Shown: positions 5,563 through 19,941 of the stretch, piece after piece
How the letters are laid out: every line of letters begins with the position of its first letter
Position numbering within the stretch: position 1 is the stretch's first letter
Position numbers and translations under genes: made by a program
Origin: a virus
Reading direction: 5' to 3' (one strand)
Virus record (IMG/VR): IMGVR_UViG_3300035698_018280
Span: 32,001-96,000 of that record
DNA: 64,000 nucleotides
The notes under the pieces: model-generated
Databases searched by the model: none
The model's input: the letters and a program-made list of their open reading frames with translations, nothing else
Told to the model about the DNA's origin: nothing

Positions 5563-5862
5563 TCAGTGTATCCTGCTACCTAGCGCCTGAACTGGAACAC
5601 TAATGATGTCAAGTCCATCTTTCTTACATCTGTCAACAATCTCGATATAGAGTTCCCAAAGCTCATCCCATTCACATTCGCTATCCAACGAAGCATCTAA
5701 TGCCATTACAAGTCTGGTAATATCAGAATCAAATTGATATTTAGTCAAATGGAAAAATTTCATAACAGCCATAAGGTGTTGCAGTCCTGCAAACATAACA
5801 TGAGCCTGAATTTTATTTTCCTCTCCAAGTTCTTCAAGTAAATGTTTCAAAGTTTTTGACAT
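5563..5862 (-). CDS. hypothetical protein
   Basis: 99-aa ORF in operon context. Confidence 0.65.
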   Translation of the reverse strand: MSKTLKHLLEELGEENKIQAHVMFAGLQHLMAVMKFFHLTKYQFDSDITRLVMALDASLDSECEWDELWELYIEIVDRCKKDGLDIISVPVQALGSRIH

Positions 5863-5871
5863 AGTTATTCT

Positions 5872-7809
5872 CTAAGCTCTTATTCGCTTTACTTTATCAA
5901 GCACATTTGCTTCCTTAAGAAAACGACTTGGCTTAACAGGGACGTTGTATACGCCCTTATTGCGATTTCTCTTAGTCCTTGTAGTCGGAAAAGTTAATAT
6001 CAAACGTTCTTTTGCTCTTGTCATTCCGACATATGCCAAACGTCTTTCTTCATCTGGTTGCCCATCATTTTCTTGGAGAGACATAGCATGAGGCAAGGTT
6101 CCTTCGTCCATACATGGCATAAAAACAACAGGAAATTCTAGTCCCTTTGATGAATGTATTGTCATGAGAGAGACAGCATCTTCAACAGCGTCTTTATCCA
6201 AACTTGATTGCAAAGAAATTTTATTGATGTATCCGGCTAAATCTCCGCCATTGCTACTAAAGTTAGATGCTGATACGAAAAGTTCTTGCAAATTCTCTGA
6301 TCTATTTTTCATAGAATCTTCGTCATTATCTTCCAGATATTTAACATATTCAAGAGATGTAATGAATTCCTCCATAATATCACCTATCTGAAATCCGCTA
6401 AAGTCTTTAGAGAACAAGTCGGCCATCATCTTGAGGCTTTTGTGTATCAAAAGGCTGTTGGCACCCTTGATATATTCGTCGCCTCTTTTCATAGCCTCAA
6501 GCATATTTAGTTTATTTTGAGAAGCAAACTTTTCAATCTTACCAAGCGTTCCCTGTCCGATTTTACGACTAGGCTTGTTGATGAATCTAGCAAGTGCAAT
6601 GCCGTCCTTTGGATTGTTATAGAATCTAAGCATTGCCAAGCAATCCTTAATTTCCATACGATCAAAGAAACTAAAGGCCCCAAAAACCTGATAGTTAACT
6701 CCGCTAGCCATAAGACCGGCCTCGATAGCGCGAGACATAGCATTCGTTCGATACAAGATAGCGCAATCATGCAGCTTGTAGCCTTCTTTCATCGCCATCC
6801 GCTTTACTGCCTTGCCAAGCCATCGACCTTCTTCGTCAGGAGAATCGAAGCAGAAGCTATCAATAGCCTTGCCCTCATCATTGACTGTATCAAAGTCAAC
6901 ATTCTCTCTATTGCTATTAAAACCTATCAATCGACCGGCAGTCTTTACAATTGTTTTTGTTGAGCGATAATTAATAGGCAAACGAATAACCTCTGCTTCA
7001 AAATTAGTAATGAAGTCCTGAATGTTTTCAAAACGAGCGCCTCGCCAGCCATAGATCGATTGATCTGGATCTCCGACCATAAAGACATTACCAGATTCGC
7101 CAAGTTTTTCGACAAGTCTAAACTGAGCCAAGTTTGTATCTTGAGCTTCATCTACCTGGAGAATATCAAAACGCTCCTGCAGTTTGCATAGAATTTCTCT
7201 ATCTTTCTCAAACAATTTTATGGTTTCAGAAAGAAGACCGCTAAAATCAACACGATTTGTTCTTTGCAGGCATGAAATATATTCGCGAGCGATGGCTGTA
7301 TGAGATGGAATATCAAAGTAATCTTCAAATTCGCTTGACTCTGGATCTGCAAGCTTTTCTCTTGCATCGCTAGTTGCCCATAGAATTTTGCGAACCTCAT
7401 ACGCTCCAAGTTCATGTTCAAGCTGTCGAGCGCATTGAGCCATAAGAGACTCCTGGTCGTCAGAAGCAAGAATAGTCATATTCTTGTCGTACCCAAGATA
7501 TGCACCGAATTTGCGTAGAATTTTCGCGCACAACGTATGGAAAGTGCTGATATGAACTTTTTTCGCATCCTCTCCAATTAACGAAACAAGACGGTTCTGC
7601 ATTTCATTAGCAGCCTTGTTGGTGAAAGTTATACAAAGAATGTTCTTGGGTTCAAAGTTTTGTTCTATTAATCGAGCGCATCGCTCGACAATAACTCTGG
7701 TTTTACCTGATCCAGGGCACGCAGAAACAAAACACGCTCCCCAAACATGATTGACAGCTTTGCGTTGTTCGTCATTAAGATTTACTTTTGTTCTTGTCAT
7801 TGCAGCCAT
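5872..7809 (-). CDS. uvrD: UvrD/PcrA/Rep SF1A DNA helicase
   Basis: ACPGSGKT, TFTNKAANEM, VDEAQDTN, VGDPDQSIYGWRGA, NYRS, TIHSSKGLEF, EERRLAYVGMTRA. Confidence 0.95.
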   Translation of the reverse strand: MAAMTRTKVNLNDEQRKAVNHVWGACFVSACPGSGKTRVIVERCARLIEQNFEPKNILCITFTNKAANEMQNRLVSLIGEDAKKVHISTFHTLCAKILRKFGAYLGYDKNMTILASDDQESLMAQCARQLEHELGAYEVRKILWATSDAREKLADPESSEFEDYFDIPSHTAIAREYISCLQRTNRVDFSGLLSETIKLFEKDREILCKLQERFDILQVDEAQDTNLAQFRLVEKLGESGNVFMVGDPDQSIYGWRGARFENIQDFITNFEAEVIRLPINYRSTKTIVKTAGRLIGFNSNRENVDFDTVNDEGKAIDSFCFDSPDEEGRWLGKAVKRMAMKEGYKLHDCAILYRTNAMSRAIEAGLMASGVNYQVFGAFSFFDRMEIKDCLAMLRFYNNPKDGIALARFINKPSRKIGQGTLGKIEKFASQNKLNMLEAMKRGDEYIKGANSLLIHKSLKMMADLFSKDFSGFQIGDIMEEFITSLEYVKYLEDNDEDSMKNRSENLQELFVSASNFSSNGGDLAGYINKISLQSSLDKDAVEDAVSLMTIHSSKGLEFPVVFMPCMDEGTLPHAMSLQENDGQPDEERRLAYVGMTRAKERLILTFPTTRTKRNRNKGVYNVPVKPSRFLKEANVLDKVKRIRA

Positions 7810-8209
7810 TACATCCCTTATTAGCTTTCTTCGGCAATTTTGGTCCCATTGGACGCCTTCTTACACCTTGCATCATCTTGTGAGGAGGATCATTTAACGC
7901 TTCCTTAGCTTCTATGATTTCCTGCATAATTACTAACGGAGAAGTGAAACCTATTCTATTATAAAACACTTTGTCTTCTTCCTCATAAGCCTGTATGTGA
8001 GGAAGCTCATCAACGCCATGCTTATCGCAAAGTTTTTGCGTTTCATCAGCCATTGCATCAATCCATTTATAACTAATCGAATGCATATCGAAAGCTCTTT
8101 TGAGCTTATCGCATTTTTCGCAATCATCCGATCCGAATAATCTAATTATAATTATATTATTCTTCAATGCTCTGTATTTCTTTGGCCGCACTGAGTACAT
8201 CACTTGCAA
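7775..8209 (-). CDS. glutaredoxin/thioredoxin-fold protein
   Basis: CEKC motif after a hydrophobic strand, GVDELPHI cis-Pro region; start uncertain. Confidence 0.65.
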   Translation of the reverse strand: MQVMYSVRPKKYRALKNNIIIIRLFGSDDCEKCDKLKRAFDMHSISYKWIDAMADETQKLCDKHGVDELPHIQAYEEEDKVFYNRIGFTSPLVIMQEIIEAKEALNDPPHKMMQGVRRRPMGPKLPKKANKGCNGCNDKNKSKS

Positions 8210-11292: not shown

Positions 11293-12049
11293 ATTCTAAT
11301 AACCTTCTGTCAATGTCCTCATAGGAGAACTGGTTTCTTTCTAGTTTGGCTTGCCGAAGTACGTTTCGCATTCCTTTTGCGCCGTGCTTCGATAAGAATC
11401 CGTCTGGATCTTCTTTCTTCTGATCGTTTCTGGGGAGTATAACAGGTATAACCGTCATACCAAATGTCTCCGCCATTTCCTGATTTTTGACCATAGTCAT
11501 ACTACGCGATAAAGTTTTAAGTCCAGATTCATCATAATCGAACAACAAAAATATTTCGCTGCAATATCGTCTTAGTATGCATGCGTGTTCTAGCGTAAAT
11601 GCGCTGCCCAAAACTCCTACGGTCATATCGAAACCGAAATCATGCATGCGAGCAGTATCAATTTGTCCTTCAACAATAATTGCCTTGCCGCTTTTACGAA
11701 TGGCTTCTTTAGCTATATTCAATCCATACATGTAGAATCGCTTATTGAATTCTTCATGCAAATGAGGAAATTGTTTTTGATCTGTTGTTCTAAATTTTCT
11801 ACTGGTAAGAACAACCAAATCATCATAAGGGTCAAACAAGGGCATGATGATCCTTTCAGACCACGCATGCCGAACTCTACTGGGAACATACCCAAAACGG
11901 AACTGCTTGAGTATCTTTTCCGATAAATGTCTCTTCTCGCGCAAGTATGACAGCGCTTCTACTACGTCTGCAGAATCATCTTTCCAGAGAGTTTTCTGGC
12001 CGCGATCACAAAAGTATTCGCGCTCATGTTCAGGAAGCTTTACGCTCAT
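11267..12049 (-). CDS. dnaG: DnaG-type primase catalytic (Toprim) subunit with no zinc-binding domain
   Basis: YLREKRHLS..FRFGY, RIIMP, YGLN, IIVEGQID, LGSAFT, FDYDESG, KEDPD. Confidence 0.88.
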   Translation of the reverse strand: MSVKLPEHEREYFCDRGQKTLWKDDSADVVEALSYLREKRHLSEKILKQFRFGYVPSRVRHAWSERIIMPLFDPYDDLVVLTSRKFRTTDQKQFPHLHEEFNKRFYMYGLNIAKEAIRKSGKAIIVEGQIDTARMHDFGFDMTVGVLGSAFTLEHACILRRYCSEIFLLFDYDESGLKTLSRSMTMVKNQEMAETFGMTVIPVILPRNDQKKEDPDGFLSKHGAKGMRNVLRQAKLERNQFSYEDIDRRLLEYAIPQTTA

Positions 12050-13284
12050 ATTTCATTACTATCAACTGTTATTGCTGCAGGAGAATTCTTACGACTCAAT
12101 TTAGGCTTTGATTTTTCCTTATCAGATTCAGAAAATTCTTTACCCTTCTGAACATCATTAGATTTTTTGAACTTCATATGTTTTTCAAAGTTACTAACTT
12201 CTGGTGGGATAGGTATGCCTGCTTCTTTGGCAGCTTCAGAAATAGCTACAACAAGCTGAGATAAATTCTCTTGTTTTTCAACTTGCTTCATAAACTCTTT
12301 CTTGCCCTCGACCTTGATTCCGTTCCAGGAATAAATTCCTTTGCGAACAGTAATAGTTTTGGCTTTACGACCAGAGTCAAAAATGACTTCGCTAGCATCT
12401 GGGAAGTAATATTTGTAGTAGATAGGAATACGGACTCCCTGCTTATGAGGGCTAGAAAATCTGTTTTTCTCAATCCAAACATTAGATGTACCTGCAATAA
12501 GATTTTCATTTCCTTGTTCATCTTCAACATAATGAAGCGCATCTTTTGAAGACAGTTTGTTCATCTTCAAAATTACTGAACAAGCGTGTTTGATAGCATG
12601 TCCGCCAGTTGTTCCTTCTGGATTTCCAAACATCTGCCCAGGATTGACTCGAAGTTGATTGATAAAAATAACAAGAGTATTATTTGCCGCCGCATAGCCA
12701 GCAATTTTATGAAGTGTCTTACCTAATACACGAGCAAGAATTGCTACAGTATCTTTTTCGGCAGGATTCTCCATAACATATTTTGGTATAAGGTGAGCAA
12801 CAGAGTCAACAACAACGACTCCTGCGCCAGCCTGACAAGCCTTCATAATAGTATCAAGGATTCTCTCTGCATCAAATATCTTCTCTGGATCTTTTGCATC
12901 GAATAAGTTCTGCAGAGCAATGTTCTCTGGATCCATTCCATTGATCTTTGCAAGCTGAGGACTAAATGAGTTTTCGCAATCGATCCAAAAAACAGGACGA
13001 TCAATTTGTTGCGCATTACCGCAAACTCGATATGCAAGAGATGATTTTCCGCATCCTTCGCCCCCATAAAACATTACTAGCTTACCAGGAGGAAGGCCAT
13101 AAATTATTTCTTCATCATATTCAATTACTTCTCCGTGTTCATCTTCATACATTCCGCGAGAAATGTAAAAATCTAACTCGGCATGACCAGTAGGATTCAT
13201 AACAATCTTACTGTTGTCTATTTCCGTATCGTGACCAGCAAGCATTCGCAATGCTCCAAGTTTGCTGGGTAGTTTCTTCGCCAT
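12046..13284 (-). CDS. recA: RecA/UvsX recombinase
   Basis: GLPPGK, Walker A GGEGCGKSS, IDCENS, VVDSVAHL, IFINQLR, FGNPEGTTGGHAIKH, KNR. Confidence 0.93.
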   Translation of the reverse strand: MAKKLPSKLGALRMLAGHDTEIDNSKIVMNPTGHAELDFYISRGMYEDEHGEVIEYDEEIIYGLPPGKLVMFYGGEGCGKSSLAYRVCGNAQQIDRPVFWIDCENSFSPQLAKINGMDPENIALQNLFDAKDPEKIFDAERILDTIMKACQAGAGVVVVDSVAHLIPKYVMENPAEKDTVAILARVLGKTLHKIAGYAAANNTLVIFINQLRVNPGQMFGNPEGTTGGHAIKHACSVILKMNKLSSKDALHYVEDEQGNENLIAGTSNVWIEKNRFSSPHKQGVRIPIYYKYYFPDASEVIFDSGRKAKTITVRKGIYSWNGIKVEGKKEFMKQVEKQENLSQLVVAISEAAKEAGIPIPPEVSNFEKHMKFKKSNDVQKGKEFSESDKEKSKPKLSRKNSPAAITVDSNEI

Positions 13285-13314
13285 TAATTACTCCAATTCA
13301 TTATTTGTTCAGAT

Positions 13315-13343
13315 AGAAACACCGCAGCCGCGAACGGCTGCGG
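13315..13343 (-). terminator. GC-rich UUCG-loop hairpin downstream of the SSB gene (intrinsic terminator or mRNA stabiliser)
   Basis: Minus strand CCGCAGCCG-TTCG-CGGCTGCGG (perfect 9-bp stem, 13322-13343) followed by TGTTTCT. Confidence 0.7.
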
Positions 13344-13374
13344 CGGTCCAAGTGCCTTTATTTTACTTCAACTA

Positions 13375-14058
13375 TTAGAAGTTGAGATCGTCGTCATCGT
13401 CGTTAGACGAGCTTGATGCGCCCGCCGCAACAGTGGCCGACTGATCTCCGCTAGAGCCTCTGGAAAGGCCCAGCTTCTCTTCAATCTCATTCTGAGCAGT
13501 TGGTTCGAATAGTTTATTCAGATCGAATGCGCCATGCTCCTTGAGATACGCCTTCTCTGTATCAGAGAAAGGAGTCTGAAGCATAGGAATAACTTCGTAA
13601 CGAGTATTTCTCTTATCAGTTCCCTTGCAAGTAACATTGATGGTAAAATCAGCGCCCTTGCCCGAACCAGGATTGACATCGTTTGCCTTACCCCAGTCTC
13701 GAATAAATCGAGCTATGGTAGGAGCGACCTCAACGATCTTGAGGCGAGCCATTCCATTGTCATCAACATCGTTGCGATCGAGTACGTTGAAAGCGTAACG
13801 AATACGCTGATCATACTCTGGATCGCCATCTGCATTCTTGTGATTACGAAGAACGACGCAATCTCCGCCAGCATCGGTAATAGCAACTTGATACTTGCCA
13901 TCATCGCCCTGAACAAAATAACGTCTAACCTCTGCAGGTCGTCCTACTGGACGAAGCTTATAACTTTGATTTGCTTCAATTTTGAGGAATTTGCCGCCGC
14001 CGCCGCTTGATTCGCCTGCTGGACGTGGATCTACCTCGCCCCATTCTACTGTACCCAT
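13375..14058 (-). CDS. phage single-stranded DNA-binding protein (gp32-like)
   Basis: KFLKIE...KLRPVG, RYAFNVLDR, GADFTI, TRYEV, acidic tail DDDDDLNF; strong RBS AAAAGGAG; next to recA. Confidence 0.75.
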   Translation of the reverse strand: MGTVEWGEVDPRPAGESSGGGGKFLKIEANQSYKLRPVGRPAEVRRYFVQGDDGKYQVAITDAGGDCVVLRNHKNADGDPEYDQRIRYAFNVLDRNDVDDNGMARLKIVEVAPTIARFIRDWGKANDVNPGSGKGADFTINVTCKGTDKRNTRYEVIPMLQTPFSDTEKAYLKEHGAFDLNKLFEPTAQNEIEEKLGLSRGSSGDQSATVAAGASSSSNDDDDDLNF

Positions 14059-15456: not shown

Positions 15457-15741
15457 CTATAGAGAGTCGAAATCATCCTTCTTGAATTTGGTAGTTGGGC
15501 CATCATTGCGAACCGCATTTTGACTGTCCAAATTCAACTCTTGTAAAGTTTTCAATTCAAATCTCTGGTAGTCTTCTAATACCAATTTACCAACATTTTC
15601 CGATTTCTTCATAAGCTCCTCAACAGAGCCCCATTCTACTTCTTGAGAGATCTCTGCAAAAATATCGCAGGTCTCATATTTTGCAGTATTCAGCTTGCGT
15701 GTTACGCCCTTCTTGATCATCGATTTTCTAATATCGCCCAT
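15457..15741 (-). CDS. hypothetical protein
   Basis: 94-aa ORF with AAGGAG RBS. Confidence 0.7.
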   Translation of the reverse strand: MGDIRKSMIKKGVTRKLNTAKYETCDIFAEISQEVEWGSVEELMKKSENVGKLVLEDYQRFELKTLQELNLDSQNAVRNDGPTTKFKKDDFDSL

Positions 15742-15756
15742 CGTTTACTCCTTCTT

Positions 15757-17799
15757 TTATTCATCGCCAAACATATCGTCTGACTCCAATCCTTTTCGAC
15801 GAGATTTCCTTCTGTCTTCCCGTAGTTCACCAAACTCTTTTACAACATCTTCAGACTTACGTTTTTTCGTTCTACCAGTCTTCATATCTTTCTCTCTAAA
15901 GAAGCCAGCAATCGCCAGGCATTCTGCACTTTTTGCATCAACAAACTTTGGATCAGTATTGAAAGCAAAATCTCTCATATCCGAATACGGCTGCTTGGCC
16001 TCAATCTCTGTAGCCGCTCGGTGGCTCATACCCTTACAACGAAGCGAAGGTCTGATCTGAGACTTATGAACACCGTTTGACGGATCTTTGCGGACAACAA
16101 TTTCGTAGTCATAACTACACTTGTTGATACTACGAGGAAGAACGTCCATATTCATCTTGCCGCAATCTTTTTCAAACTGCACAATCTTTTCATACTTATC
16201 AGCTTTTTTACTTCTCAATAAAACATTCATGTATGATGTCATAAACTCTTCAGGATAATGAGTTTTCAGATAAGCAGTTGTATACGATAAATAAGCATAA
16301 CAAGCGCTATGAGATTTATTAAATCCATAATCAGCAAAGGGAGTAATAAACTTATCCCAATACTGTTGCGCAACTTCTTCAGGAACATTGTTGACTTTAC
16401 AGCCGTCAATAAACTGAATTTGATACTTATTCATGAGTTCCGGTATTTTCTTACCGACTGCTTTGATCATAGCATAACCATCAGTAATAGAAAAACCAGC
16501 AAGAGAATTACAGACTTGCATCAACTGTTCTTGATAACAAAGAACTCCGTATGTAGGTTCTAGATATTTTCTAACATAAGGCTCAATAGACTCATGAAAA
16601 TATCCAACAGGTTCTTCGCCTTTCTTACGAGAAGAATATAATGGAATTGATTTCATAGGCCCTGGACGATACAAAGCTACTCCTACAATGACATCTTCAA
16701 AACGATTGACTCTAAGTTGTCGCATCGTTTGTTGCATACCTGGATTTTCGCATTGGAAAACGCCATTGAGTTTGCCGCTTCGATATAGATTTAGTGTATC
16801 CTTATCGTCAAGAGGCATATTCTCTACATCAATTGTAATTCCATAATTTTCTTTAATAAGTTCTACTGTCCGACGAATAACTGCCAATGTTGATATGGCA
16901 AGAATATCAAATTTGATAAGACCCATAAACTCAAGGTCTTCATATGCATATTGCGTAGCAAGTTCATAATGAGTACCCTTACCTTCTTCGTCTGCAACTT
17001 TCTTTCGGCTTAGCCTCAGAGGAGCAATAGACTGAAGAGGTACGCTAGAAATAACAATTCCGGCAGCATGAACGCTAAAGTTAGATAGTAATCCCTGAAT
17101 ATTGGGCGAATGCTCAAGAAGCTCAGGATATTTATCCACATATCTTTTAAAGTCATCGCAATATTTTGCCCCATCTGCAACAGTCCTGATAACGACATCA
17201 TTACCCTCCTCATCGGTGGCCCTGATGTTTGCCCCGACCTGTTTTGGAAGAGATTTTGCTATCTCGTCCCCTCTATCCTGCGTTTCCTTGCGCCAACGTT
17301 CCCTGTTCTCATTCCTAACAGTCTTGCTCTCGTGAAGAGCCATAGTAGGTGAAAATACTTTATCAGGATCCAGGGCTCTAAACCCTTGGCGAATATAAGA
17401 CTTAAGCTTCAACGACTGATAAGTACCGATATTACCAACATGGTCTCTACCATACTTGTCAATAATGTAAGTATAAATTTCATCGCGAAACTCATCATCA
17501 AAATCAGAATCAATATCAGGAAAGCCCTTACGAGCAAAACAACGACGAATAGGAAGAAATTCTTCGTCCTCTGGTCTTTTCTCAGTTATACCCAATAGAT
17601 AAGCTGTATGAGAATTGATCTTATTAGTCTTACCGATAAGACTCTTCTCTTTAGCGCTCTTCCACATATTATAAAACTTAAGGAGAATAGGCTCTCCATC
17701 AAGATTATCGGTTTGAGCCATAAAGTCCAATTCTTCTCGAACTTTATCAGTGGCTTTACTTCCAATAGTTTCAAGAATCTCTTGTTTGATCTTGTTCAT
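15757..17799 (-). CDS. dnaE: DNA polymerase III alpha subunit, C-terminal part (catalytic palm, thumb, fingers)
   Basis: FPDIDSDF, HAAGIVIS, GLIKFDIL, GVFQCE, ALYRPGPM, TYGVLCYQEQ, YGFNKSHS, YLKTHYPEEF; no OB fold visible. Confidence 0.93.
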   Translation of the reverse strand: MNKIKQEILETIGSKATDKVREELDFMAQTDNLDGEPILLKFYNMWKSAKEKSLIGKTNKINSHTAYLLGITEKRPEDEEFLPIRRCFARKGFPDIDSDFDDEFRDEIYTYIIDKYGRDHVGNIGTYQSLKLKSYIRQGFRALDPDKVFSPTMALHESKTVRNENRERWRKETQDRGDEIAKSLPKQVGANIRATDEEGNDVVIRTVADGAKYCDDFKRYVDKYPELLEHSPNIQGLLSNFSVHAAGIVISSVPLQSIAPLRLSRKKVADEEGKGTHYELATQYAYEDLEFMGLIKFDILAISTLAVIRRTVELIKENYGITIDVENMPLDDKDTLNLYRSGKLNGVFQCENPGMQQTMRQLRVNRFEDVIVGVALYRPGPMKSIPLYSSRKKGEEPVGYFHESIEPYVRKYLEPTYGVLCYQEQLMQVCNSLAGFSITDGYAMIKAVGKKIPELMNKYQIQFIDGCKVNNVPEEVAQQYWDKFITPFADYGFNKSHSACYAYLSYTTAYLKTHYPEEFMTSYMNVLLRSKKADKYEKIVQFEKDCGKMNMDVLPRSINKCSYDYEIVVRKDPSNGVHKSQIRPSLRCKGMSHRAATEIEAKQPYSDMRDFAFNTDPKFVDAKSAECLAIAGFFREKDMKTGRTKKRKSEDVVKEFGELREDRRKSRRKGLESDDMFGDE

Positions 17800-18137
17800 T
17801 ATATACCTGCGCTAAAATGGGCTGTTACGCCCAGGCTAGAATATTTCTTCACTATTTTTAGGTTCAGCCTATTTTGCAATAGCTCTCCTTGTCGTTCTAT
17901 CTCTTTCATTTCGGCCCAATACCCTTCGCTATTATCATCATCCACCAACATCGTTCCAGGTTTAGCCTGCCAATAGCAATATACACTAATTTCTGTATGA
18001 TATGTCCTACTTGAAAAATGCAAGCCCCACGAGTTGATATCTATTTCAAAACGAGGTTCATCAACTTCCTGGCTAACTTCATCCGATGTTTGACGAACCA
18101 TTTTTAAGATATTTTGAATTACGCTAGAAGACAACAT
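17799..18137 (-). CDS. hypothetical protein between the two dnaE parts
   Basis: 112-aa ORF; its TAA overlaps the ATG of dnaE-C (TAATG). Confidence 0.65.
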   Translation of the reverse strand: MLSSSVIQNILKMVRQTSDEVSQEVDEPRFEIDINSWGLHFSSRTYHTEISVYCYWQAKPGTMLVDDDNSEGYWAEMKEIERQGELLQNRLNLKIVKKYSSLGVTAHFSAGI

Positions 18138-18140
18138 GAG

Positions 18141-19535
18141 TTAATACCTATCTACTCCGCCCATATCGTCTTCAAACTCTCGATCCAGAGCGGCGGTTTC
18201 AATAAACAACTCTTCTGCAGATTTGGCTTCATCTAAACCAAAATCGCTCTCTTGCAGGAATCTCTTGTCATCGAAGCCCAAGAATCTTTCCCAAAGAAGT
18301 CCATACTCCAATGGATCTGGCCCATATGCAATACCAAGGCAACGTAAAAGCACGCTGCCGTATCCTGAACCCCGGCCGCATCCGGTCAAGATGTTTCGCC
18401 TTCGAGCTTCCATCATGTAGTCTCGAACAATAAGTAGATACGTTGCAAAGTCATATTTATTATTATCCCATGCAACTTTGATATCATCCATTTCGAGTTT
18501 CAATCGAGCTATATGTTCAGGACTCTGCGCCCATCCTAATTTCTGAAGACCGTCGTTTGCCAACTGCCCCATGTAATCATGAGGAGATTTAAAACTTTTA
18601 GGTATATCGAATCTAGGCAGTCTCATACCGCTTGTCATATTTGTAAGTATATCGGTAGTGTCAACCTTGTCGGCAACAAGCATGGTATTCGTCAGAAGCT
18701 CAGGATGCGTTCCAAATGTCTTAGACATTTCAGCAGCCGACTTTAGATAGAACTCACTGTAAGGAAACTTGATGCGGCTAGGATCGCTGAAGCAACGAGA
18801 AGTTGACATTGCCATTAGAAGCTCATGAGATTTGCCCTGGCATTTTTCGCAATAGTGACAATCATTAGTAGCATGAACGCATACATCCATGTCTTTACCA
18901 AGCTTGAGAATATCCGGGATAATCATGCCTTCAGCATCTATACCATGATACATAGCCTCAAGATGAAAATCTTTATCGAATATGTCTTTAAAAAGGGCAA
19001 CGGCCTTCTTGGCCTGATCGTAACGGTCATGCAACAAGTTAGCATTGATAACGCTACTTAGACAAGCAGAAGTGCAAATAAGCCCTTCGCTATATTTACC
19101 AAGAAGATCAAAATCTATACGAGGATCAAAGAAATAACCTTCGGTCCAGCTATGCTCAGAAAGACGACAAAGGTTCTGGTATCCTGTCCAGTTTTTAGCA
19201 ATCAAAACAATATGTCTATTGCCCTTTCGCTTGTCTGGTTGTTCTTGTACTGAATGAGCGTGCCTGTCTTTGGACAAATAAAACTCGCAGCCTACGATGG
19301 GCTTGCATGTTGGAATCTCGTTTCCATGCTCATCTTTAGCAGGCTTTAGGCATTCCTGCATAAACTTGATAGCACCAGCCATGTTTCCATGATCAGTCAT
19401 GGCAAGGGCCTTGAATCCTTTTTTGCGAGCAGCAAGAGGAAACTGTCCTATCTTATTTAGCCCATCAAAAGATGAGTATTCAGTATGGTTATGAAGGTGA
19501 CAAAAATCGGCGTTAGTGATACGAAGTTTTCCCAT
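18141..19535 (-). CDS. dnaE: DNA polymerase III alpha subunit, N-terminal part (PHP domain plus start of palm)
   Basis: HLHNHTEYSSFDG, TDHG, GCEFY, CTSAC, TNDCHY, GCGRGSGYGS, DPLEYGLLWERFL, then a stop. Confidence 0.93.
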   Translation of the reverse strand: MGKLRITNADFCHLHNHTEYSSFDGLNKIGQFPLAARKKGFKALAMTDHGNMAGAIKFMQECLKPAKDEHGNEIPTCKPIVGCEFYLSKDRHAHSVQEQPDKRKGNRHIVLIAKNWTGYQNLCRLSEHSWTEGYFFDPRIDFDLLGKYSEGLICTSACLSSVINANLLHDRYDQAKKAVALFKDIFDKDFHLEAMYHGIDAEGMIIPDILKLGKDMDVCVHATNDCHYCEKCQGKSHELLMAMSTSRCFSDPSRIKFPYSEFYLKSAAEMSKTFGTHPELLTNTMLVADKVDTTDILTNMTSGMRLPRFDIPKSFKSPHDYMGQLANDGLQKLGWAQSPEHIARLKLEMDDIKVAWDNNKYDFATYLLIVRDYMMEARRRNILTGCGRGSGYGSVLLRCLGIAYGPDPLEYGLLWERFLGFDDKRFLQESDFGLDEAKSAEELFIETAALDREFEDDMGGVDRY

Positions 19536-19581
19536 AACTCCCTATCGTCTGCAAATAATCATGTGTAGATATGTTCCACCG

Positions 19582-19941
19582 TTAAGTCGAACGTTTCTTG
19601 CCATGAGGCTTGATTTTATTAGCATTCTTATTTAAAGAAGAACGTTTTTCCATATATTCCGAATAATGCTTAGTAAATCCAGGAGGCGCATCGCATGTTA
19701 GTCTTTGTTCAAAGGCTTCAGCAAGCGAAATTATTTTATCGTCATCTAAATTATCTGGTATATTTGCCATACCTGAAAAAGGTCCAGACTTAGCTGCTTC
19801 TCTCATTCGCAACAGTTCGGCTTCCAATCTAGTTTTACGATCTTCTTCAGACTCAACTACAGGATTATTCTTTGCATCTTGTAGTTTTTTCTCAAACTCT
19901 TCTTGTAATTTACGAATTTCTTCTGAACCTGGGCGGTGCAT
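19582..19941 (-). CDS. hypothetical protein
   Basis: 119-aa ORF, coupled to the upstream gene. Confidence 0.65.
   Translation of the reverse strand: MHRPGSEEIRKLQEEFEKKLQDAKNNPVVESEEDRKTRLEAELLRMREAAKSGPFSGMANIPDNLDDDKIISLAEAFEQRLTCDAPPGFTKHYSEYMEKRSSLNKNANKIKPHGKKRST

What the first reader, a model, noticed from the sequence alone, without database searches (positions are those of the whole stretch)
15757..19535. DnaE split within the palm without an intein, with a degenerate duplicated segment at the break and an intervening ORF
Seen: the N-gene ends ...GRGSGYGS...DPLEYGLLWERFL plus an acidic tail. The C-gene resumes at RKGFPDIDSDF, but first carries about 85 aa that look like a decayed second copy of the preceding region (VREELDFM...LKFYNMWKSAKEKSLIGKTNKINSHTAYLLGITEKRP vs canonical RL..EL..I...G.GRGS..GS.VAY.LGIT.VDP). 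There is no Cys/Ser-start or His-Asn intein motif on either side, unlike cyanobacterial split-intein DnaE. The GRGS motif is on one chain and all three catalytic Asp (PDID, KFD) are on the other, so both chains should be needed. A 112-aa orphan gene separates them. Inference: a natural heterodimeric C-family polymerase that reuses the duplicated helices as an interface.
Basis: partly seen in the sequence, partly recalled or inferred. Interest (0 to 1): 0.72.

Follow-up and report, generated by a model that had tools for sequence, protein, structure and literature searches.

The report
Two-gene phage DnaE polymerase, no intein
This giant marine phage, like hundreds of uncultured relatives, encodes its only DNA polymerase (bacterial DnaE type) as two separate proteins cut through the catalytic core, which most likely join without splicing to build one active site; the small gene between them is optional cargo.

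Summary
On the minus strand lie a 464-aa N-gene (PHP exonuclease plus the first palm part with GRGS), a 112-aa orphan ORF, and a 680-aa C-gene (PDID and KFD aspartates, thumb, fingers, HhH). The genes abut or overlap.

No intron or intein signature was found. More than 100 stand-alone N-halves and about 110 C-halves exist on contigs of up to 548 kb. Three complete relatives have no other polymerase.

The gap between the halves ranges from -8 to 2,936 nt and holds 0 to 7 unrelated genes, so ORF112 is dispensable.

The C-gene's first ~88 residues are an extra helical module. A profile of 110 such heads matches the canonical GRGS segment of DnaE (E = 1.2e-4), which moderately supports a decayed duplicate.

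New here:
- Close relatives carry both copies fused in one ORF.
- Others have only a short second copy, or none.
- These states interleave on the tree.
- Most split N-halves end in a conserved acidic tail, ...EDDxGGVDRY.

Complex modelling scored 0.90 against a best control of 0.00, but this may reflect the model's memory of solved DnaE structures.

Split polymerases in phages are known, and this scan reported the same arrangement on at least seven other genomes.

The parts
18141..19535 (-). dnaE N-half gene (464 aa): PHP exonuclease domain plus the first part of the palm, up to and beyond ERFL
   Evidence: ORF. Pfam PHP 13-195 and DNA_pol3_alpha profile 3-99. Aligns to M. tuberculosis DnaE1 residues 2-427. 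All nine PHP metal ligands are present: H13/H15/H17, D24, H49, E84, H108, C158, D225, H227.
18366..18377 (-). GRGS loop (N residues 387-390), the dNTP-triphosphate-binding 'GS' motif of the Pol-beta-like fold
   Evidence: Invariant in 79 N-halves. Lies in the predicted interface with the C-half. The role of the motif is from published DnaE structures (own knowledge).
18144..18263 (-). N-tail (residues 425-464): degenerate PDxD-like 'ESDFGLDE', a variable acidic linker, and the conserved C-terminal ...EDDxGGVDRY
   Evidence: Tail alignment of 120 N-halves. D457, G459, G460 and R463 are invariant. pN of the last 13 codons is 0.03-0.13, at or below the core's 0.14-0.20. The tail is absent from fused type B relatives and from about 33 short-tail N-halves.
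17799..18137 (-). ORF112: orphan gene in the variable gap, translationally coupled to the C-half (TAATG)
   Evidence: No Pfam or PHROG hit. Three true homologues; for two of them (P0363, P0364) the contigs show the gene directly upstream of a C-half. AlphaFold2 pLDDT 87 with an alpha-beta-beta-alpha-beta order, and no PDB match at E <= 0.001. Absent from most relatives.
15757..17799 (-). dnaE C-half gene (680 aa): extra head, catalytic strand, thumb, second palm part, fingers, HhH domain
   Evidence: ORF. Pfam DNA_pol3_alpha, DNA_pol3_finger 304-471 and HHH_6 551-636. Aligns to T. aquaticus DnaE 411-508 and 554-943.
17536..17799 (-). C-head (residues 1-88): helical module missing from canonical DnaE; probable decayed copy of the helix-GRGS-helix segment, with GRGS replaced by 'GKTNKINS'
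   Evidence: hhalign of 110 heads against a full-length DnaE profile: E = 1.2e-4 in the expected register. The Pfam alignment starts at profile 69 on N62-S63. The module is helical with pLDDT 78-94 in the fused relative's model. pN is 0.32-0.37 against pS of about 0.73, so selection is weaker than on the rest but still purifying.
17503..17520 (-). PDIDSD (C residues 94-99): catalytic aspartates D95 and D97
   Evidence: Invariant in 109 C-halves. Aligned to PDIDTDF of T. aquaticus DnaE.
16906..16914 (-). KFD (C residues 296-298): third catalytic aspartate
   Evidence: K296 and D298 are invariant. Aligned to LKMD of T. aquaticus DnaE.
15769..15783 (-). SDDMF (C residues 673-677): possible sliding-clamp-binding motif near the C terminus
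   Evidence...G[VI]xSxD[LMI]F is conserved at the end of split and fused relatives; F677 is nearly invariant. The likeness to QADMF of E. coli alpha is from my own knowledge and was not tested.

Best explanation
The phage's replicative C-family polymerase is made as two polypeptides from adjacent, translationally coupled genes. They assemble non-covalently into one DnaE-like enzyme.

The N-subunit brings the PHP proofreading exonuclease and the first palm helices, including the GRGS loop that holds the incoming dNTP's triphosphate. The C-subunit brings the metal-binding aspartates (D95, D97, D298), thumb, fingers and HhH domain. The active site is therefore composite.

The break lies inside a tandem duplication of the palm segment. 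The N-side copy kept GRGS and lost the aspartates. The C-side copy kept the aspartates and lost GRGS, and it survives as an extra helical head.

Shown: gene structure, conservation, absence of splicing signatures, fused and duplicated relatives, and the variable gap.

Inferred: heterodimer formation, the composite site, and the idea that the head and the N-tail stabilise the interface.

ORF112 is cargo in an insertion hotspot, not a subunit.
For: Structure and motifs.

Conservation of the split:
- 605 near-length hits to the N-half, with more than 100 stand-alone N-halves at 52-77% identity on contigs of up to 515 kb.
- About 110 stand-alone C-halves.
- Of 30 IMG/VR loci, 19 could be read as split (18 more with the first set overlapping), 6 as fused and 5 could not be classified.

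Motif conservation: GRGS is invariant on N, and D95/D97/D298 on C.

Sole polymerase: three complete relatives of 488-548 kb have exactly two PF07733 hits each and no PolA or PolB hit.

No room for splicing: the halves are 14 nt apart in L002 and overlap by 8 nt in L011 and L025.

Selection: pN is 0.03-0.13 for the last 13 N-tail codons, and 0.32-0.37 for the head against pS of about 0.73.

Duplication:
- hhalign E = 1.2e-4.
- Both halves cover Pfam profile positions 69-97.
- Basal fused relatives P0172 and P0183 have a short, clearer second copy such as 'NSMSAYLLGITSKKPD'.
- Type B relatives of 1071-1117 aa hold both copies in one ORF.

Complex model of N 1-464 with C 1-310:
- Score 0.90 in all three runs; best of 3 controls 0.00.
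- The mark was reached by 58 of 80 solved complexes and 2 of 110 mismatched pairs.
- The runs share at least 91% of contacts; partner pLDDT is at least 84.
- N 382-391 and 418-434, and C 27-74 and 82-101, lie in the interface.
- N 373/376 pairs with C 108-112, as the neighbouring palm helices would in a single chain.
Against: No biochemical evidence exists.

The complex pass is what one expects for halves of a protein whose single-chain structure is solved, so it may come from memory, and my own alignments were used. The N-tail 435-464 was not confidently placed, though the C-half was cut at residue 310.

The duplication signal is modest: probability 55%, and the direct N-tail against C-head comparisons are not significant.

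Synonymous sites are saturated, so the selection ratios are qualitative only.

The C-half keeps all secondary-structure elements of the fold, so some activity on its own cannot be excluded.
Confidence: 0.8

Rival explanations
1. The two proteins work apart. The C-half is a self-sufficient polymerase that uses its own degenerate loop, and the N-half is a separate PHP exonuclease or phosphoesterase that associates only loosely or not at all.
For: The C-half contains a full set of fold elements (helix, loop, helix, DxD strand) plus thumb, fingers and HhH. The N-half has all nine PHP ligands. Proofreading subunits that are separate from the polymerase are common (own knowledge).
Against: GRGS is invariant on N, while the matching loop on C is variable and lacks the GS motif. 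The genes are always adjacent and in the same order, and often overlap. Close relatives are fused. The model places N's palm helices in the canonical position against C.
Confidence: 0.1
2. The halves are rejoined after transcription or translation, by an intron running from ERFL to RKGFPDID or by an atypical split intein made from the N-tail and C-head.
For: The stretch from ERFL to PDID is about 730 nt, which is the size of a group I intron. N-tail plus C-head is about the size of a mini-intein. C-heads have a conserved Asn-Ser (N62-S63). Inteins do occur elsewhere in this gene in relatives.
Against: No Rfam family reached an E-value below 0.39, and no intron family was hit. The region is protein-coding and under purifying selection. 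There is no HINT or intein Pfam hit. The N-tail has no Cys/Ser1 or TxxH block. The head is helical rather than all-beta. The same segment sits in frame inside fused type B proteins.
Confidence: 0.03
3. The split is a broken gene or an assembly or sequencing artefact.
For: Fragmented dnaE genes caused by frameshifts are known in bacterial genome records (PMC3919608).
Against: The same breakpoint appears in more than 100 independent assemblies from JGI, ENA, Tara and Logan. Each half has its own start, a conserved tail and a conserved head. Catalytic residues are intact. No other polymerase was found in complete relatives.
Confidence: 0.02

Closest known systems
Split 'minimal' DNA polymerase III alpha of group 2.2 (T4-like) jumbo phages (Iyer et al. 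2021, Viruses 13:63, PMC7824862)
   Same: A phage Pol III alpha catalytic module encoded as two proteins. [quoted passage not shown] It also predicts that they reconstitute one enzyme.
   Different: That version is minimal, without PHP or other domains. Its genes lie far apart, and it accompanies a family B polymerase. Here the enzyme is full-size (PHP, palm, thumb, fingers, HhH), the genes are adjacent, no PolB or PolA was found in complete relatives, and the break lies in a duplicated segment. I did not align the two sets.
'Fractured genes': dnaE and other replication genes split by split inteins with a free-standing homing endonuclease between the halves (Dassa et al. 2009, PMC2677866); also cyanobacterial split-intein DnaE
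   Same: A marine, phage-like dnaE in two neighbouring genes with a foreign ORF between them.
   Different: No HINT motifs were found on either side, so no protein splicing is expected. The gap gene here is not a recognisable endonuclease; only one relative (L030) has an HNH gene there. The break is also at a different site.
Intein-free split phage enzymes: gene 43A/43B family B polymerase of Aeromonas phages 25 and 44RR, the split nrdA of Aeh1, and T4 topoisomerase genes 39/60 (Edgell et al. 2010, PMC2988022)
   Same: An essential replication enzyme cut into two polypeptides that reassemble without splicing. According to that review, 43A and 43B co-purify and have polymerase activity, and a mobile gene may sit in the gap.
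   Different: The polymerase family and fold differ. Here the cut passes between the nucleotide-binding loop and the catalytic aspartates, and it is flanked by a duplicated segment. It is spread over a very large clade rather than a few phages.
Single-chain DnaE with an active PHP proofreader (M. tuberculosis DnaE1 5lew/7pu7; T. aquaticus 2hpi/3e0d)
   Same: These are the best sequence and fold matches, with the same domain order and catalytic residues.
   Different: They are one polypeptide with no duplicated palm segment, and they carry an OB fold and a C-terminal tau-binding region that are absent here.

Membership tests
C-family DNA polymerase, DnaE type (Pol III alpha) | N-terminal PHP domain with the nine metal-binding residues | tested here: met
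   Pfam PHP, E = 1.5e-42. H13/H15/H17, D24, H49, E84, H108, C158, D225 and H227 are present and conserved.
C-family DNA polymerase, DnaE type (Pol III alpha) | Pol-beta-like palm with a GS loop and three catalytic aspartates | tested here: met
   GRGS 387-390 is on the N chain; D95, D97 and D298 are on the C chain. All are invariant and align to solved DnaE structures. The feature is met only by the two chains together.
C-family DNA polymerase, DnaE type (Pol III alpha) | Fingers and HhH (beta-binding) domains | tested here: met
   PF17657, E = 6.9e-47; PF14579, E = 6e-08.
C-family DNA polymerase, DnaE type (Pol III alpha) | Catalytic core on a single polypeptide | tested here: not met
   There are two ORFs with a third between them, and the same holds in many relatives.
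C-family DNA polymerase, DnaE type (Pol III alpha) | C-terminal OB fold and tau-binding domain of bacterial DnaE1 | tested here: not met
   No PF01336 or further domain was hit; the protein ends about 45 residues after HHH_6. Bacterial relatives do carry PF01336.
Split-intein 'fractured gene' / cyanobacterial split DnaE | HINT splicing blocks: Cys/Ser at the start of the N-intein, TxxH, and a terminal (H)N followed by Cys/Ser/Thr | tested here: not met
   Neither half gave an intein or Hint Pfam hit, while intein-bearing relatives do give such hits. The N-tail consensus lacks Cys/Ser1 and TxxH. The head is predicted helical. The same segment lies in frame in fused proteins.
Split-intein 'fractured gene' / cyanobacterial split DnaE | Free-standing homing endonuclease gene between the halves | tested here: not met
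   ORF112 has no Pfam or PHROG hit and no nuclease-like fold match. Among 43 gap ORFs of relatives, only L030 has an HNH endonuclease.
Gene interrupted by a group I or II intron | Recognisable intron RNA structure between the exons | tested here: not met
   cmscan of 15500-19800 at E <= 10 hit no intron family. The halves are 14 nt apart or overlap in relatives.
Minimal split Pol III alpha of group 2.2 jumbo phages (Iyer et al. 2021) | Split between the NTP-binding and Mg2+-binding subdomains of the nucleotidyltransferase fold | tested here: inconclusive
   The break here lies between GRGS and PDID, which matches the paper's description. I did not fetch or align their proteins.
Minimal split Pol III alpha of group 2.2 jumbo phages (Iyer et al. 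2021) | No PHP or other DnaE domains; distant genes; accompanies a family B polymerase | tested here: not met
   PHP, fingers and HhH are present. The genes are adjacent. No PF00136 hit was found in three complete relatives.

The most novel reading that the evidence does not exclude
The split is an evolved two-subunit design rather than a tolerated accident. After a tandem duplication in the palm, fission produced a heterodimer whose active site closes only when the N-subunit's GRGS loop docks on the C-subunit. The decayed duplicate acts as a docking module. The split-specific acidic tail ending in GGVDRY acts as a latch onto the C-subunit or another replisome protein. This would allow regulated assembly or exchange of the proofreading and nucleotide-binding subunit. 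It would also make the inter-half gap a privileged, co-expressed landing site for cargo genes.
Probability: 0.2. Interest if true: 0.7.

Novelty: new variant of a known kind. Interest (0 to 1): 0.55.

Why it matters
No C-family replicative polymerase has been shown to work as two chains that share one active site. A reconstituted enzyme would show which palm elements must be covalently linked, and how the GS loop and the metal site cooperate.

The clade also holds unduplicated, short-duplicate, duplicated-fused and split forms of one orthologous gene. That is a rare natural series for studying gene fission by duplication and complementary decay.

In practice, annotation pipelines call these halves 'DNA polymerase III subunit alpha' or 'PHP domain protein' without noting the split. 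This affects polymerase-based phylogenies of huge phages.

Tried and rejected
- **Direct N-tail against C-head comparisons.** BLASTP gave E = 2.3. The two copies inside P0183 gave no alignment. Small profile against small profile gave E = 0.099. Heads and short second copies alone gave no Pfam hit. Only the deep head profile gave a usable signal.
- **Second hhalign hit.** It links the first 17 head residues to the helix after PDIDxDF (E = 0.36). The BLASTP pairing of 'DREFEDDMGGVDRY' with 'DDEFRDEIYTYIIDKY' is similar. Neither is significant, so I did not use them to set the limits of the duplicated unit.
- **ORF112.** Long cadherin, CARDB, ankyrin and SH3-repeat proteins in the phmmer list are repeat artefacts. 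Foldseek against the PDB found nothing at E <= 0.001, with best TM about 0.48. Its function is unknown.
- **Gap ORFs of 170-190 aa next to Dam methylases.** They have no Pfam or PHROG hit. A nuclease role is only a guess.
- **dN/dS.** Synonymous sites are saturated (pS 0.7-0.9), so I report only pN and pS.
- **GGVDRY tail and the C-half's C-terminal motif.** No link was found. The C-terminal motif occurs in long-tail, short-tail and fused forms alike.
- **Literature.** Four searches and nine papers gave no description of this full-length two-gene DnaE.
- **Type B palm model.** It is only moderate (pLDDT 68.9), so I used it for secondary structure and its DnaE match, not for contacts.
- **Sliding clamp.** No DnaN (PF00712) hit was found in three complete relatives. 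The clamp may come from the host or be too diverged to detect.
Full report
**What is there.** Three minus-strand ORFs fill 15757-19535.
- A 464-aa gene at 18141-19535.
- A 112-aa gene at 17799-18137.
- A 680-aa gene at 15757-17799.

The first stop is followed by CTC and then the ATG of ORF112. The ORF112 stop overlaps the next start (TAATG).

Pfam places PHP (13-195) and DNA_pol3_alpha profile positions 3-99 in the first protein. It places DNA_pol3_alpha, the finger domain and HHH_6 in the third, and nothing in ORF112. PHROGs agrees, and it already holds a family of N-half-sized proteins, phrog_7513.

Against solved structures:
- The N-protein aligns to M. tuberculosis DnaE1 residues 2-427. 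This includes GRGS, ERFL and a degenerate 'ESDFGLDE' opposite PDIDIDFD.
- The C-protein aligns to T. aquaticus DnaE 411-508 and 554-943. 'GKTNKINS' lies opposite GRGSAAGS, and PDIDSDF opposite PDIDTDF.

The record is an IMG/VR virus contig of 163,887 bp, rated 33% complete. It has only these two PF07733 matches.

**Not an artefact, intron or intein.**
- A search with the N-half found more than 100 stand-alone N-halves of 430-506 aa at 52-77% identity, on contigs of up to 515 kb from Tara, JGI, ENA and Logan.
- A search with the C-half found about 110 stand-alone C-halves of 636-683 aa.
- Of 30 IMG/VR loci on contigs of up to 548 kb, 19 could be read as split and 6 as fused; in 5 my motif search found no C-half.
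- In L002/L021 the halves are 14 nt apart. In L011 and L025 they overlap by 8 nt, with a TTG start inside the N stop region. This leaves no room for an intron.
- Rfam at E <= 10 hit no intron family.
- Neither half has an intein Pfam hit, although intein-bearing relatives are readily detected at other sites of the gene.
- GRGS is invariant in 79 N-halves, along with the full PHP ligand set. D95, D97, D99, K296 and D298 are invariant in 109 C-halves.
- Three complete relatives (498,568 and 488,051 bp with terminal repeats, and 547,943 bp) have exactly two PF07733 hits each and no PolA or PolB hit.

**The duplicated segment.** Direct comparisons of N-tail and C-head are not significant, and the head alone has no Pfam hit.

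A profile of 110 C-heads, compared with a 68-sequence full-length DnaE profile of 1153 columns, gives one hit. Head columns 18-80 match canonical columns 320-384 (RL.EL.vI ... GPGRGSaAGSivaYcLgIT.iDP), with E = 1.2e-4 and probability 55%.

Pfam local alignments of C-halves begin at profile position 68-69, while N-halves end at 97. About 30 profile positions are therefore covered twice.

Two basal fused relatives, P0172 and P0183, carry only a short and clearer second copy straight after ERFLGFDD..DF: 'QSVLAYYLGLTSAEPD' and 'NSMSAYLLGITSKKPD'.

In an AlphaFold2 model of a fused relative's palm, the extra module is four helices with pLDDT 78-94. Their order mirrors the preceding canonical segment. 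The model matches DnaE structures at Z 14-16.5.

I rate the duplication as moderately supported.

**Relatives in other states.** The 'longer' search returned N-halves with inteins. It also returned fused proteins at 45-56% identity, which fall into three kinds:
- Type A (928-999 aa) has ERFL about 20 residues before PDID, as in canonical DnaE.
- Type B (1071-1117 aa) has both copies in one ORF, with ERFL about 125 residues before PDID.
- 'Mid' forms have the short second copy only.

P0146 (type B) translates under table 11. It sits in the same gene neighbourhood as the window's locus: DnaB, the DnaG zinc ribbon, then RecA and Toprim downstream (compare).

On a quick maximum-likelihood tree of N-cores (89 rows), the phage clade has 100% SH-aLRT support. 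The mid forms are basal and three type B proteins branch next. Split, B and A forms then interleave; for example, P0148 (B) is sister to P0121 (split) at 100%. Even counting only well-supported branches, B and A each need at least three changes.

The direction of change (fission against re-fusion, deletion against gain) is not resolved.

**The N-tail.** Of the N-halves I classified, 79 end in a variable acidic stretch followed by (D/E)R(D/E)VEDDxGGVDRY, and 33 stop right after '..DF'. Type B proteins lack the motif. The last 13 codons have pN of 0.03-0.13, at or below the core's 0.14-0.20. What the tail binds is unknown.

**The gap and ORF112.** The gap ranges from -8 to 2,936 nt and holds 0 to 7 ORFs. 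Among 43 gap ORFs, the hits were:
- five D12 Dam methylases
- two ClpP-like proteases
- a dCMP deaminase
- a SAM methylase
- a HisRS-like protein
- one HNH endonuclease

ORF112 has three true homologues. Two of them could be placed on contigs, and both lie directly upstream of a C-half with an overlapping stop and start. Its model (pLDDT 87) has no PDB match. It is best read as lineage-specific cargo, though a small accessory role is not excluded.

**Complex model.** N 1-464 was modelled with C 1-310, using my own alignments.
- The score was 0.90 in all three runs, and the best of 3 controls was 0.00.
- The mark was reached by 58 of 80 solved complexes and 2 of 110 mismatched pairs.
- The runs share at least 91% of contacts, and the partner's pLDDT is at least 84.
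- The interface includes N 382-391 (GRGS), N 418-434, C 27-74 (head) and C 82-101 (catalytic strand).
- N 373/376 pairs with C 108-112, which is what the canonical palm packing predicts. This suggests the N-side copy takes the canonical place and the C-head is the extra element.

Single-chain DnaE structures are solved, so this pass may come from memory. It shows likeness, not binding.

**Known precedents.**
- Iyer et al. 2021 described a minimal Pol III alpha of T4-like jumbo phages. It is split into NTP-binding and Mg2+-binding parts encoded by distant genes (PMC7824862).
- Dassa et al. 2009 described marine dnaE genes 'fractured' by split inteins, with an endonuclease gene between the halves (PMC2677866).
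- Edgell et al. 2010 review intein-free split phage enzymes, including the family B polymerase 43A/43B, which co-purify and are active (PMC2988022).
- Surveys of bacterial DnaE mention only intein splits and frameshift fragments (PMC3919608).
- A study of marine jumbo phages notes PF07733 in their largest cluster but not the split (PMC9123017).

I found no paper on this full-length two-gene DnaE. This scan has already reported the same arrangement on at least seven other genomes, and my results agree with those reports.

**Verdict.** This is a real, old and selected two-gene DnaE with a probable composite active site. The break lies in a decayed internal duplication, and ORF112 is optional cargo. 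It is a new variant of a known kind, of moderate interest. Its value lies in the natural series of fused, duplicated and split forms, and in a testable two-chain C-family polymerase.

Noticed in passing
window 15769-15783 (-), C-half residues 673-677; also L018-L047 C-half ends: C-halves and fused relatives all end in ...REDxKKxxKKG[VI]xSxD[LMI]F(G). This resembles the internal beta-clamp-binding motif QADMF of E. coli alpha (own knowledge). No DnaN Pfam hit was found in three complete relatives.
   Followed up: partly
L005/L006 (= L026/L027) 5639-8176; proteins P0124-P0151, P0278, P0285, P0310, P0325: Many relatives carry LAGLIDADG-type inteins inside the PHP part of the N-half (ORFs of 845-900 aa) or inside the C-half (1064-1125 aa). 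Inteins therefore visit this gene, but not at the break.
   Followed up: partly
L011 4305-4844 and 12540-13298; L012 1428-2108 and 13399-14133; window neighbourhood: The DnaG primase is also in two genes. The zinc-ribbon part lies next to DnaB, and the Toprim part lies after RecA, about 8-12 kb away. This layout is conserved in split and fused-DnaE relatives. The scan noted the same for this window.
   Followed up: no
L030 8499-9533; L019/L020/L023/L024/L026 gap ORFs: The gap between the DnaE halves is an insertion hotspot. It holds an HNH endonuclease in L030, and Dam methylases preceded by unannotated 170-190 aa ORFs in several loci. It also holds ClpP-like proteases, a dCMP deaminase and a HisRS-like gene.
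   Followed up: partly
window 12046-14058 (-): A RecA/UvsX-like gene (412 aa) and a 227-aa gene with an acidic C-terminal tail ending DDDDDLNF, which looks SSB-like, lie downstream of the polymerase genes. This matches the neighbourhood in relatives.
   Followed up: no
P0365, P0367-P0370: phmmer of the 112-aa ORF pulled long repeat proteins (cadherin, CARDB, ankyrin, SH3 repeats) at E-values from 1e-5 down to 1e-11 through many short stretches. These are false positives and worth remembering for small queries.
   Followed up: yes
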